From Opitutales bacterium (GTDB lineage: Bacteria; Verrucomicrobiota; Verrucomicrobiia; Opitutales; UBA953): a stretch of 64,000 nt of DNA. Below, one piece after another: positions 12,001-15,000 of this stretch; the first letter of the stretch is position 1, and each line of letters opens with the position of its first letter. Position numbers: made by a program. The stretch lies in the NCBI GenBank assembly GCA_040398005.1, contig JBBAUX010000002.1:64001-128000 (forward strand). Direction: 5' to 3'.

Positions 12001-15000
12001 AGATGTTTGATTTTAGAGATGTCTCGCCTTTTTGAGAGTGAAGGAGCTCAGGTGTCTGCCTGGTGGGAGAAATTTGCCAATTTTTCTTGGCGGACGGATT
12101 GGACACAGGTGGTCATTATTTTAGCGTTAAGCACCTTAGGGGTCGTCGCGATTAAATCAGCAGGCTCTTACCGGCAGACCAATTTTGAAACGCCGCAGAT
12201 GATTTATGTGGGCATTGGTTGGTTGGCTTACTGGATGATCTCCTCGTTGGATTATCGTAAGCTACGTGTCCACGCGCGCCGCATTTATTTAATCGGGATT
12301 CTCCTGCTGGTACCGATATCTTTTTGTGCATTTTTTAAAATAAATATTGGTTCATTTATTCGGAGTATTAACGGCGCACGTCGCTGGATGGATTTCGGTC
12401 CTTTTTCCATTCAGCCTTCCGAATTTGCCAAAGTTTCCGCCCTCATTTTTATCGCGGCGGTCTTGGTCTTAAATCCGATTGGGTCGTGGCGTAAGTCGTG
12501 GCCCACGGTCGTCAAGGTTTTGGCCGCGGCCGGCCTACCGTTTGTCTTGATTTTTGTGCAGCCTGACTTAGGCTCTGCCCTCATCTACCTTCCACTGTCA
12601 TTTGCCTTGTTGTTTGTTGCCGGCCTGAGTTCCAGGTTTTTCATGGTGGCGGGATTGAGTGCCGTCTTATTGGGAGCCGTGGTTGCAGTAGATTTAGTTT
12701 CTTACGCTTCCAAAGTGACGGCGTACGCTAAAGCGCATGAAGATGATTTAAATCCCGCCAAAGCGATTCGCGGAAAACATGAAGATACGGCCTGGTTTTT
12801 TCTTTTGAAGGATTATCAACGCGAACGCTTACTTTCCTTTGTAGCACCTTCCATCATTGATCCGCGCGGACGCGGGGCGACGTGGAATGTGAAACAGGCT
12901 GTCATCGCGGTCGGGCGTGGCGGATTAGAAGGACAGGGCATCGGTAAAGGCACCCAAGCGAAGTATGGTTACCTTCCGGAAGCGGCGGCGCATAATGATT
13001 TTCTATTTTCGGGAATGGCTGAAGAAATTGGTTTTCGCGGGGGACTCTTTGTCGTGGTCGCTTTTGCTTGGTTGCTCTGGCGCATTGTGCGAACCGCCTT
13101 AATGGCCATCGACCGCTTTGGATCTTTGTTAGCAATTGGTGCCGCTGTGATTATCGGCACCCATGTCGTTATTAATATCGGCATGAATATCGATTTAATG
13201 CCCGTCACGGGCGTTCCACTACCTTTCCTCAGTTACGGGGGGTCCTTTATTCTCAGCTGCTTTTTGCTTCTCGGATTAGTCCAGAGCGTCCATCGACATT
13301 CGGTGGATGGCGGTGAGAATAGGGGGACTCCAGTAACTGGCATTTAACGCCATACTACTGCGATGACCGACCAAAATAATTCCGACGATAACCTAAACGA
13401 CCTCCCTGAAGAAAGCACACCGCCGACTTCCTCCGGGGTTGATCCTAAGCAACTCGCTGAAGAAGCCGCGCAACGTCGCAAAGAGTTACCGCTCTTGCAA
13501 CGCATCGTGAAGCACTTCTCCAAAGACCGTGCTAATTATCGCGAACTCGTCATTAATGCCGAGACGCTCGAAAAGCGCGTCGCCCTGCTCACGAATGGCG
13601 TGCTCGATAAATTTGAAATCGAACACAAAGGCGAAAACCGCATGGTCGGTTCAATCTTTAAAGGTCGCGTGCAAAATCTCGAAGCCGGATTAAAAGCCGC
13701 CTTCGTTGATATCGGTCAGTCTAAAAATGCCTTCCTGCATTACTGGGATATGTTGCCGGCCGCGAATGACTCGCAGGTTGAATTTATCCGCGACAATGAA
13801 TCGGCTGAACAAAAACAACGTAAAGCACGCTACCAAGCGAAAGACATTCCGACGCTGTTTCCTGCGGGGTCTGATATCGTCATCCAGGTCGTTAAAGACA
13901 CCATCGGAACTAAAGGTCCTCGTTCGACAACCAACATCGCACTCCCCGGAAGATTTGTAGTCTTAATGCCCTTTAGTGGTGCTTGCGGTGTTTCCCGAAA
14001 AATTGAAGAAGCTCCTGAGCGTGAACGTTTGAAGGATATTTTACGTTCACTCACGATTCCTGAAGGCATGGGTGTAATCATCCGCACGGCGGGTGAAGGT
14101 AAGCAGGCGCGTTGGTTTGTCCGCGATCTCCATATGTTACTGCGCCGCTGGCAATCGATTGTTGAGAAGATCAACAAGTCGGAACAAAAGGCGATCTTAC
14201 TCTACACTGAGCCAGGTTTAATTGAACGAACCGTTCGCGATTTCCTCACCGAAGAAGTGGATCGTATTCTGGTCGATAATCCTGAGGACTTTAAAATCGT
14301 CCAAGACTTGGTTGCGGAAATTTCTCCGCGTTCCAGTTCACGCGTCGAACTTTATAAAGAGCCGATTCCCGTTTTCGAACGCTACAATATCGAACGTCAG
14401 ATTGAACAACTTTTCCAACGTCGCGTTCCACTGCCTAGCGGTGGCGAAATTGTAATTGATGAAACCGAAGCGCTGACCGCGATTGACGTTAACACGGGCT
14501 CGCACCGCGGTACGACCAAAGATGGTAAAGACTATATTTTACAGGCTAATATCGAGGCCGTCACCGAGGGTGCCCGCCAAATCAAGCTCCGCAATTTAGG
14601 GGGCTTAATCATGATTGATACCATCGATATGAAAAACCCCAAGGATCGTAAAACCGTTTACGATATTTTGCGCGAGGCGATGGAAGACGATCGAGCCAAG
14701 CACCAGATTTTACCGATTTCCCAATTAGGCGTGTTGCAGATGACTCGTCAGCGTCACACCGAATCGAATACGACTTCGATGTACATGGATTGTCCGCATT
14801 GTCAGGGTCGCGGTATCGTTAAAAATCCTCGAACCGTCTCGGTGGAAATTCAACGTAAGCTTTTAAGTGTGATCCGTCGCTTGCGCGAACAAGTGGGTCC
14901 AGACAAAGAATTAGAAATTAATATTCTGCTTCACCCGATTAACTTGGATCGCATCGTGAAAGAAGACCGCGAATATTTCCGCGATTTAATGAAGTCATGT

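What a model noticed while it worked through the whole genome (the two positions that open the first line are those of the whole stretch)
12019..13347. No class A penicillin-binding protein: wall synthesis by SEDS-bPBP pairs alone
No glycosyltransferase-51 (Transgly) domain, so no class A PBP and no MtgA, is found in this genome in six frames or in 10 other near-complete genomes of its genus, while half of the genomes of a sister genus have one; the genome keeps RodA (g00365, C2:76019-77347) with PBP2 (g00957) and FtsW (g00069) with FtsI (g00063). Boldest reading: this free-living bacterium builds all its peptidoglycan with the two SEDS-bPBP machines. New would be a free-living model lineage for aPBP-independent growth.
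Evidence so far: PF00912: 0 candidates here; 0 of 10 genus genomes >=95% complete; 5 of 10, 0 of 1 and 0 of 3 in three sister genera; control 10 of 10 named bacteria. pfam.tsv: no Transgly row; FTSW_RODA_SPOVE on g00069 and g00365; PBP_dimer+Transpeptidase on g00063 and g00957; MurJ g00966; MreB/C g00960, g00959.
(Added by a program. Inside this text positions count along the whole contig: contig position 64,001 is position 1 of the stretch shown here. "Call 12" and the like, gene names such as g00115 and contig names such as C1 are that model's own, and its searches are not shown. The text may have been shortened before it was handed on; [...] marks where a part breaks off. The agent that wrote the report below was given it as the finding of a first reader that could run no searches.)

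Follow-up and report, generated by a model that had tools for sequence, protein, structure and literature searches.

The report
No class A PBP: normal for Opitutales
This freshwater Opitutales genome really has no class A penicillin-binding protein and keeps only the RodA-PBP2 and FtsW-FtsI wall synthases, but that is the usual state of its whole order and is already tabulated for cultured relatives.

Summary
Window 12019-13347 (+) is an intact RodA. Its genome (1.44 Mb, 14 contigs, 93.9% complete) has no GT51/Transgly domain in six frames. It keeps RodA, PBP2, MreB/C, FtsW, FtsI, MurJ and a full lipid II pathway.

The framing does not hold. The absence is not special to this genus:
- 0 of 59 other genus genomes have GT51.
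- 279 of 301 genomes of the order Opitutales have none.
- 15 of 16 single-contig genomes in that sample have none.

The "aPBP" of the sister genera is PBP1C. It usually sits beside a bacterial alpha-2-macroglobulin gene, and two different PbpC lineages occur in the two genera. So these look like patchy gains of an accessory cassette, not patchy loss of a core synthase.

The pattern of two SEDS, two bPBPs and no aPBP is already listed for cultured free-living Opitutus, Lacunisphaera and Coraliomargarita (Atwal 2021, Table S1). Sacculi were isolated from Lacunisphaera (Rast 2017).

Verdict: real, but a new member of a known kind. Interest is low to moderate.

The parts
12019..13347 (+). rodA (mrdB): SEDS peptidoglycan glycosyltransferase, 442 aa from the ATG at 12019. 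An upstream TTG at 11992 would add 9 aa.
   Evidence: ORF. Pfam PF01098 at E 1.9e-81. Best solved relatives are RodA/MrdB structures. D327 aligns with D255 of T. thermophilus RodA, and E135/K138 with E108/K111 (that these residues are essential is recalled). All three are invariant in 74 of 74 full-length sequences, with no stops.
12673..12789 (+). Extra stretch of about 39 aa (RodA residues 219-257) just before the conserved LKDYQRER motif, which by recall of RodA topology lies in the large extracellular loop. It is absent from two same-class non-Opitutales RodAs.
   Evidence: The Pfam and PDB matches split in two here. Alignment of 7 RodAs. Mean conservation is 0.70 here against 0.92 in the catalytic half.
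8074..9366 (-). murA (UDP-GlcNAc enolpyruvyl transferase), the first committed step of peptidoglycan precursor synthesis.
   Evidence: NCBIfam TIGR01072 at 531.2 bits, over the cut-off of 392.7, at C2:72116-73360. Pfam EPSP_synthase at E 1.2e-100.
13363..15087 (+). RNase E/G family gene, 15 bases downstream of rodA on the same strand. Probably co-transcribed; context only.
   Evidence: Pfam RNase_E_G at E 4.6e-96. Spacing. No convincing terminator between the two genes.
10471..11907 (-). KH + HD domain protein (RNase Y-like), divergent from rodA. Context only.
   Evidence: Pfam HD at E 5.8e-18 and KH_1 at E 2.1e-6.

Best explanation
The genome is a streamlined freshwater member of the order Opitutales (Verrucomicrobiota). 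It truly has no GT51 glycosyltransferase: no PBP1A/1B, no PbpC and no MtgA. This was most likely inherited from an ancestor at or near the base of the order, not lost in this genus.

Proposed mechanism:
- Lipid II is made by MurA, a MurC-MurB fusion, MurD/E/F, Ddl, MraY and MurG. MurJ flips it, and UppP recycles the carrier.
- Glycan strands are then polymerised only by the two SEDS enzymes. RodA works with PBP2 under MreB/MreC for side-wall growth. FtsW works with FtsI at a divergent FtsZ ring for division.
- One YkuD L,D-transpeptidase is a possible extra cross-linker.

Shown here: gene presence and absence, intact catalytic residues and conservation. Inferred: enzyme activities, the pairing of the enzymes, and that a sacculus is made in this genus.

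The GT51 genes seen in about half of two sister genera are PbpC. It is usually coupled to a thioester alpha-2-macroglobulin. This is the accessory periplasmic defence-and-repair pair known from E. coli YfhM-PbpC, and it was acquired more than once.
For: Absence of GT51:
- for this genome.
- 0 of 59 genus genomes.
- 22 of 301 order genomes have any GT51, in 9 of 115 genera.
- 0 of 301 are over the PBP_1a_fam cut-off.
- Of 16 genomes listed with one contig, only G269 is among the GT51 hits.

Machinery present:
- Two SEDS genes and two bPBPs carrying PBP_dimer + Transpeptidase domains.
- dcw cluster mraZ-rsmH-ftsI-murE-murF-mraY-murD-LysM-ftsW-murG-murCB-ddl.
- MreB, MreC, UppP, MurJ and an Amidase_2 protein; MurA; YkuD; an FtsZ-like gene.
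- RodA catalytic Asp and the E/K pair are invariant in 74 of 74 sequences.

Sister-genus GT51 is PbpC:
- 14 of 14 bifunctional proteins pass the TIGR02073 cut-off and none passes the PBP_1a_fam or PBP_1b cut-off.
- The alpha-2-macroglobulin gene is adjacent in 4 of 4 g2 loci by Pfam and in 7 of 10 further loci by my own profile.
- The CLEQ thioester motif is present in 4 of 4.
- The g2 PbpC is 47.6% identical to one from another class, against 35-39% to genus g4 of its own family. The two genera nest in different clades (SH-aLRT 98-100).
- The cassette's flanks map to different contigs of this genome in each g2 genome.

Literature:
- Atwal 2021 Table S1 rows for Opitutus, Lacunisphaera and Coraliomargarita read ftsW 1, rodA 1, ftsI 1, mrdA 1 and all aPBP orthologue groups 0.
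- Rast 2017 reports 'only ftsI' above threshold and mrcA/B queries at E 4e-5 to 6.6. DAP was detected and sacculi were isolated (abstract).
Against: - The bin is 93.9% complete and has about 23 N gaps, so absence in this one genome is not proof on its own.
- No wall chemistry exists for this genus. By the abstract of Rast 2017, subdivision 4 was long described as lacking muramic acid and DAP, so the wall may be scant.
- The PBP_1a_fam cut-off is strict. Only 5 of the 10 control genomes that match it pass it. That tally therefore adds little beyond the PF00912 survey.
- Only 15 of the 26 Opitutales genomes with a GT51 hit were classified by NCBIfam.
- 3 of 14 PbpC genes (G020, G036, G032) have no alpha-2-macroglobulin gene next to them.
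- An unknown polymerase of another fold cannot be excluded by homology searches.
- The PbpC tree is a quick search with SH-aLRT support only and has long branches. One clade for family f1 was not tested formally.
Confidence: 0.85

Rival explanations
1. Assembly artefact: a GT51 gene exists but lies in the missing 6% of the bin or in one of its N gaps.
For: Completeness is 93.89%. There are 2,300 N in 7 contigs.
Against: 0 of 59 other genomes of the genus have GT51, including ones listed at 96-99% complete with 8-10 contigs. 15 of 16 single-contig genomes of the order have none. Where GT51 does occur in the family it is the accessory PbpC.
Confidence: 0.03
2. An unrecognised polymerase, neither GT51 nor SEDS, makes part of the glycan strands, so the wall is not built by SEDS-bPBP pairs alone.
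For: Homology searches cannot see an unknown fold. SEDS activity itself went unrecognised until 2016 (recalled). The dcw cluster holds unassigned ORFs: a 148-aa ORF with no family and a LysM protein.
Against: No evidence points to one. Both SEDS genes keep their catalytic residues under strong conservation. The 148-aa ORF sits where ftsL usually lies.
Confidence: 0.06
3. The lineage makes only a reduced or transient peptidoglycan, a 'PG-intermediate' wall as in Chlamydiae or Orientia, rather than a full load-bearing sacculus.
For: Atwal 2021 found minimal PG abundance and rigidity in aPBP-less Rickettsiales (abstract). Subdivision 4 was long reported to lack muramic acid and DAP (Rast 2017 abstract). 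The genome is small at 1.44 Mb.
Against: Sacculi were isolated from freshwater Lacunisphaera IG16b, and DAP was found in Opitutus terrae. The elongation set MreB/MreC/RodA/PBP2 is retained. A planktonic freshwater cell faces turgor. The freshwater origin is inferred from the titles of near-identical MAGs.
Confidence: 0.1
4. Patchy loss: the family ancestor had PbpC or another aPBP, and this genus lost it recently.
For: GT51 is present in 8 of 19 g2 and 4 of 10 g4 genomes and in 0 of 59 g1 genomes. Within each genus the PbpC sequences form one clade, so there is vertical descent followed by losses inside genera.
Against: The g2 and g4 proteins belong to different PbpC lineages, each nearer to proteins from other classes. 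The cassette sits in different neighbourhoods in each g2 genome. Only 9 of 115 genera of the order have any GT51.
Confidence: 0.1

Closest known systems
Cultured free-living Opitutales: Opitutus terrae PB90-1, Lacunisphaera limnophila IG16b, Coraliomargarita akajimensis (Atwal et al. 2021 mBio Table S1; Rast et al. 2017 Front Microbiol)
   Same: Same order and the same gene pattern: ftsW 1, rodA 1, ftsI 1, mrdA 1, all aPBP orthologue groups 0 (supplement rows). The MurC-MurB fusion is shared. Lacunisphaera is also from a freshwater lake.
   Different: Those are isolates with larger genomes, and their PG was shown chemically and as sacculi. This is an uncultured 1.44-Mb bin of another family and genus with no wall data. 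Neither paper discusses the order as a SEDS-only clade in the passages I read.
'PG-intermediate' bacteria: Chlamydiae, Wolbachia, Orientia, Anaplasma, Tropheryma, Planctomyces (Atwal et al. 2021)
   Same: [quoted passage not shown]
   Different: Their abstract frames the group as host-associated with minimal walls. This lineage is planktonic freshwater by the titles of its near relatives, keeps the full MreB/C-RodA-PBP2 elongation set, and has FtsZ.
E. coli YfhM (ECAM alpha-2-macroglobulin) with PbpC (PBP1C)
   Same: The GT51 genes of sister genera g2 and g4 pass the PBP_1c equivalog cut-off. Most follow a gene of roughly 1,590-1,900 aa (stop-to-stop frames) matching the bacterial alpha-2-macroglobulin profile; the four g2 proteins carry the MG domains by Pfam and a CLEQ thioester. 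This is the operon described for E. coli (passage in PMC4498604).
   Different: This module is absent from the window's genome and genus. In those sister genomes PbpC is the only GT51, whereas E. coli also has PBP1A and PBP1B.
Bacillus subtilis lacking all four aPBPs (laboratory mutant; recalled from McPherson and Popham 2003 and Meeske et al. 2016, not read here)
   Same: Growth with SEDS-bPBP pairs as the only PG polymerases.
   Different: That is an engineered, sick Gram-positive mutant. Here the state is natural, ancient and order-wide in a diderm.

Membership tests
aPBP-less 'SEDS + bPBP only' (PGi) bacteria, as defined by Atwal et al. 2021 | No identifiable class A PBP (GT51 domain) | tested here: met
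   PF00912 gives 0 candidates at E<=10. tblastn gives no homologue. The unfiltered family PbpC profile gives best E=1. Genus: 0 of 59.
aPBP-less 'SEDS + bPBP only' (PGi) bacteria, as defined by Atwal et al. 2021 | At least one SEDS and one class B PBP gene | tested here: met
   Two SEDS genes. Two proteins with PBP_dimer + Transpeptidase domains.
aPBP-less 'SEDS + bPBP only' (PGi) bacteria, as defined by Atwal et al. 2021 | Most lipid II biosynthesis genes present | tested here: met
   MurA; MurC-B fusion, MurD, MurE, MurF, Ddl and MurG; MraY; MurJ and UppP. The racemases Alr and MurI were not searched.
aPBP-less 'SEDS + bPBP only' (PGi) bacteria, as defined by Atwal et al. 2021 | PG-like wall of low abundance and rigidity (their experimental description, not their gene criterion) | not testable with these tools
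   Needs wall chemistry. Sacculi exist in the related Lacunisphaera.
SEDS glycosyltransferase RodA (Pfam PF01098) | Full-length match to the family profile and to solved RodA structures | tested here: met
   274.3 bits against a cut-off of 26.4. 6pl5/6bar/8tj3 at E about 1e-41 in two stretches split by an insertion.
SEDS glycosyltransferase RodA (Pfam PF01098) | Catalytic Asp (T. thermophilus D255) and the E108/K111 pair. Their essentiality is recalled from Sjodt et al. 2018, not read here. | tested here: met
   D327, E135 and K138 align to those residues and are invariant in 74 of 74 sequences.
SEDS glycosyltransferase RodA (Pfam PF01098) | Lipid II polymerase activity and complex formation with PBP2 | not testable with these tools
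   No assay is possible. rodA is not adjacent to the PBP2 gene (C2 versus C7). No complex prediction was run.
PBP1C (NCBIfam TIGR02073) with alpha-2-macroglobulin, applied to the GT51 genes of sister genera | Score over the PBP_1c equivalog cut-off and below the PBP1A/PBP1B cut-offs | tested here: met
   14 of 14 bifunctional proteins score 498-605 bits against a cut-off of 494.2, and none is over the PBP_1a_fam or PBP_1b cut-off. These come from 15 of the 26 genomes with hits; the 15th protein is an MtgA (186.3 against 182.65).
PBP1C (NCBIfam TIGR02073) with alpha-2-macroglobulin, applied to the GT51 genes of sister genera | Adjacent thioester alpha-2-macroglobulin gene | tested here: met
   4 of 4 g2 loci by Pfam, each with CLEQ. 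7 of 10 further loci by my own profile. Not adjacent in G020, G036 and G032.

The most novel reading that the evidence does not exclude
The whole order Opitutales, hundreds of mostly free-living aquatic and soil species including culturable ones, has grown without PBP1A/1B-type synthases since near its origin. Its members nevertheless make isolable sacculi, which would break the published link between aPBP loss and a host-sheltered life with a minimal wall. Where a GT51 enzyme occurs in the order, and in most other Verrucomicrobiota outside the Akkermansia-like families, it is a repeatedly transferred alpha-2-macroglobulin-PbpC cassette. Those strains would then be natural backgrounds in which PbpC is the sole GT51, so its long-unclear repair role could be tested cleanly.
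Probability: 0.6. Interest if true: 0.5.

Novelty: new member of a known kind. Interest (0 to 1): 0.25.

Why it matters
As submitted, it matters little. Natural aPBP-less bacteria have been described since 2016-2021. Cultured free-living members of this very order are already listed with the identical gene set and have isolated sacculi.

The survey adds three modest points:
1. The absence holds for the whole order by six-frame search, not only by annotation, and closed genomes remove the completeness caveat.
2. GT51 counts overstate 'class A PBP' presence in Verrucomicrobiota, because most hits are PbpC tied to alpha-2-macroglobulin.
3. Cultured strains of the order, such as Lacunisphaera or Opitutus, would be better models than this uncultured genus for asking how a free-living diderm copes without the repair role ascribed to aPBPs.

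Tried and rejected
- Synteny test for a clean deletion. I mapped the flanks of the GT51 gene of four g2 genomes onto this genome. The flanks differ in every g2 genome and map to different contigs here, so there is no single empty site to inspect. I read this as a sign of a variable or mobile site, not as a deletion scar.
- In one search some 'longest ORF' queries were not the GT51 frame (for example the 852-aa minus-strand frame of L001). I therefore repeated the test with a proper PbpC profile.
- My greedy ORF picker dropped mraY, which briefly looked like a gap in the dcw cluster. Reading the DNA and searching PF00953 showed that MraY is present.
- TIGR02074 across the order matched 301 of 301 genomes, but the weaker matches listed lie on profile positions of about 206-534, the TPase part, as expected of bPBPs. 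Only the over-cut-off tally (0 of 301) is informative, and the control shows that cut-off is strict.
- First PbpC tree without an outgroup. g2 and g4 did not group, but support for the deep split was weak (77/81). I rebuilt it with 35 rows and PBP1A-type outgroups. I did not run the AU test for one f1 clade because of run time.
- Two look-ups of this scan's earlier findings returned nothing.
- I did not run structure prediction, complex prediction, read mapping or the large protein databases. The question was one of presence and absence and of known families.
- Literature searches for an explicit statement on aPBP absence in Opitutales or Verrucomicrobia found it only in Rast 2017 (one sentence plus Table S5) and Atwal 2021 (Table S1). 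The V. spinosum essential-genome paper does not mention aPBPs in the passages returned.
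Full report
**What is at the coordinates**

Window 12019-13347 (+) is an open frame of 442 aa from its ATG; a TTG at 11992 would add nine residues. It matches Pfam FTSW_RODA_SPOVE at E 1.9e-81. Its nearest solved relatives are RodA of Thermus thermophilus (6pl5, 6bar) and E. coli MrdB (8tj3), at E about 1e-41.

In that alignment D327 lies on D255 of the Thermus enzyme, and E135/K138 lie on E108/K111. That these residues are needed for activity is recalled, not read here.

I translated RodA from 73 full-length loci out of the 79 returned by the search for related loci. 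These are 67-97% identical to the window's protein. All three residues are invariant in 74 of 74 sequences and no frame has a stop.

The record titles of those loci are freshwater Opitutales, Opitutae or Verrucomicrobiota MAGs from lakes and rivers. That is the basis for both the taxon and 'free-living'.

The window is C2:64001-128000 of a 1,443,074-base, 14-contig bin rated 93.89% complete.

Neighbours:
- A KH+HD protein lies upstream on the other strand.
- An RNase E/G gene lies 15 bases downstream on the same strand.
- murA is at 8074-9366 (-).

**Is GT51 really absent?**

In this genome, three tests agree:
- PF00912 in six frames gives 0 first-look candidates at E<=10, while the same search found it in 10 named control bacteria.
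- tblastn with GT51 proteins of sister genera gave no homologue.
- A profile built from four PbpC proteins of the sister genus, run without filters over all 10,295 six-frame ORFs of 50 aa or more, gave nothing better than E=1. The only true relative was the TPase part of FtsI, at E=1.4.

The bin has 2,300 N, about 23 gaps, so one genome is not proof. The relatives close that gap:
- 0 of 59 other genomes of the genus have GT51.
- Of 16 genomes of the order listed with a single contig, only one (G269) is among the GT51 hits of the same sample.

**The rest of the wall machinery**

There are two SEDS genes, FtsW at C1:90263-91540 and RodA. There are two proteins with PBP_dimer + Transpeptidase domains, FtsI at C1:82811-84622 and PBP2 at C7:2689-4908.

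The dcw cluster reads mraZ, rsmH, a 148-aa ORF with no family, ftsI, murE, murF, mraY, murD, a LysM protein, ftsW, murG, a murC-murB fusion, and ddl. An FtsZ-like gene lies at C1:98032-98994. It scores 177 bits, below the curated 295.

Beside PBP2 lie mreC, mreB and uppP. Further along are murJ and an Amidase_2 gene. A YkuD L,D-transpeptidase abuts PBP2.

**How wide is the absence?**

| Sample | Genomes with any GT51 |
|---|---|
| Family: g1 | 0 of 59 |
| Family: g2 | 8 of 19 |
| Family: g4 | 4 of 10 |
| Family: g5 | 0 of 11 |
| Family: g3 | 0 of 1 |
| Order, 301 genomes of at least 90% completeness | 22 of 301 (9 of 115 genera) |
| Order, match over the PBP_1a_fam cut-off | 0 of 301 |
| Phylum, 401 genomes | 137 of 401 |

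The PBP_1a_fam cut-off is strict: only 5 of the 10 controls that match it pass it.

Breaking down the phylum sample:
- Families of the order: 4 of 81.
- Families whose hit rows are labelled 'same class': 44 of 48, of which 31 are one family with 3-5 copies each.
- The rest: 89 of 271.

**What are the GT51 genes of the sister genera?**

In all four g2 loci I enlarged, the GT51 gene directly follows, and slightly overlaps, a 1,588-1,663-aa gene. That gene carries bacterial alpha-2-macroglobulin domains (bMG10, MG2, bMG3, A2M, bait region) and a CLEQ thioester motif.

I classified proteins from 15 of the 26 Opitutales genomes with a hit. All 14 bifunctional ones pass the NCBIfam PBP_1c equivalog cut-off (498-605 bits against 494.2). 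None passes the PBP1A-family or PBP1B cut-off. The 15th is a monofunctional MtgA.

By my own profile, an alpha-2-macroglobulin gene is adjacent in 7 of the 10 further loci. It is not adjacent in G020, G036 or G032.

This is the YfhM-PbpC pair of E. coli, proposed to act in periplasmic defence and repair (passage in PMC4498604). It is not a general wall synthase. That PBP1C cannot replace PBP1A/1B in E. coli is recalled.

The window's genome has neither gene.

**Gain or loss?**

The flanks of the cassette map to different contigs of this genome in each g2 genome.

I built a tree of 35 proteins rooted on PBP1A-type sequences. It used a quick IQ-TREE search with SH-aLRT support only, and it has some long branches.
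- The g2 clade is sister to a protein from another class (support 98), inside a clade of other-class proteins (99).
- The g4 clade is sister to a different other-class protein (100), in another clade.
- Identity tells the same story: 47.6% between g2 and that other class, against 35-39% between g2 and g4, which share a family.

I picked 16 loci from other classes out of the best-scoring rows, so they are not a random sample. PBP_1c is the best family in 15 of them (11 over the cut-off), and an alpha-2-macroglobulin gene is adjacent in 12. Four 'same class' loci are best matched by PBP_1a_fam and have no alpha-2-macroglobulin neighbour.

I read this as at least two acquisitions of an accessory cassette in the family, followed by losses within genera. 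A formal AU test was not run.

**What is in print**

Atwal et al. [quoted passage not shown] They count 988 such genomes among 4,985 KEGG genomes. Their abstract frames the group as host-associated.

Their Table S1, sheet 'SEDS+bPBP only', has rows for Opitutus, Lacunisphaera and Coraliomargarita. Each reads ftsW 1, rodA 1, ftsI 1, mrdA 1 and every aPBP orthologue group 0.

Rast et al. [quoted passage not shown] Their mrcA/B queries gave E 4e-5, 2.1 and 6.6. They found DAP and isolated sacculi from the freshwater isolate IG16b.

My searches found no paper that discusses the order as a SEDS-only clade or that identifies its GT51 genes as PbpC. Subscription journals are not covered by these searches.

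**Verdict**

The mechanism, all glycan polymerisation by RodA-PBP2 and FtsW-FtsI, is the best-supported reading at about 0.85. It remains an inference from gene content.

The interpretation needs three corrections:
- The trait is ancestral and order-wide.
- The sister-genus 'aPBPs' are an accessory PbpC cassette gained more than once.
- Free-living cultured examples are already on record.

This is a new member of a known kind, and interest is about 0.25.

Noticed in passing
L093:4446-11466 (G019), L094:4640-11570, L095:8527-15680, L096:2586-9493: Two-gene cassette in sister genus g2. A 1,588-1,663-aa thioester (CLEQ) bacterial alpha-2-macroglobulin gene overlaps the start of a PbpC gene. The g2 copies are closer to copies in other classes of the phylum than to those of genus g4 in the same family.
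   Followed up: yes
window 12673-12789 (RodA residues 219-257): The RodAs of the order carry an extra stretch of about 25-39 aa just before the LKDYQRER motif, and a second small insertion near residue 105. Both are absent from two same-class non-Opitutales RodAs. Whether this relates to working without aPBPs is unknown.
   Followed up: partly
G000:C1:92562-94895 (outside the window): murC and murB are fused into one 778-aa frame, as reported for other Verrucomicrobia.
   Followed up: no
G000:C7:2214-2675 (+), abutting PBP2 at C7:2689-4908 (-): The genome's single YkuD L,D-transpeptidase lies tail to tail with the PBP2 gene. It is a possible extra cross-linker in a cell without aPBPs.
   Followed up: no
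G000:C1:98032-98994: The FtsZ-like gene scores 177 bits against TIGR00065, well under the curated 295, although all 13 control genomes that match the profile pass the cut-off. It is a divergent FtsZ.
   Followed up: no
G000:C1:89890-90306 and C1:82389-82832: A small LysM-domain protein sits between murD and ftsW. A 148-aa ORF with no Pfam family sits where ftsL usually lies.
   Followed up: no
order sample, (families f4, f7, f18, f32, f34): Many genomes of the order are only 0.7-1.1 Mb. All of them still match through a TPase domain, most with two matches, so even the most reduced members keep bPBPs.
   Followed up: no
phylum sample: 264 of 401 Verrucomicrobiota genomes of at least 90% completeness have no GT51 domain at all. 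In 15 of 16 hand-picked hits from other classes, the GT51 protein is PbpC-like.
   Followed up: partly
window 9418-10197 (-): A 259-aa ORF between murA and the KH+HD gene has no Pfam family at E<=1e-5.
   Followed up: no
The tool places the window at C2:64001-128000. The gene coordinates given fit an offset of 64000.
   Followed up: yes
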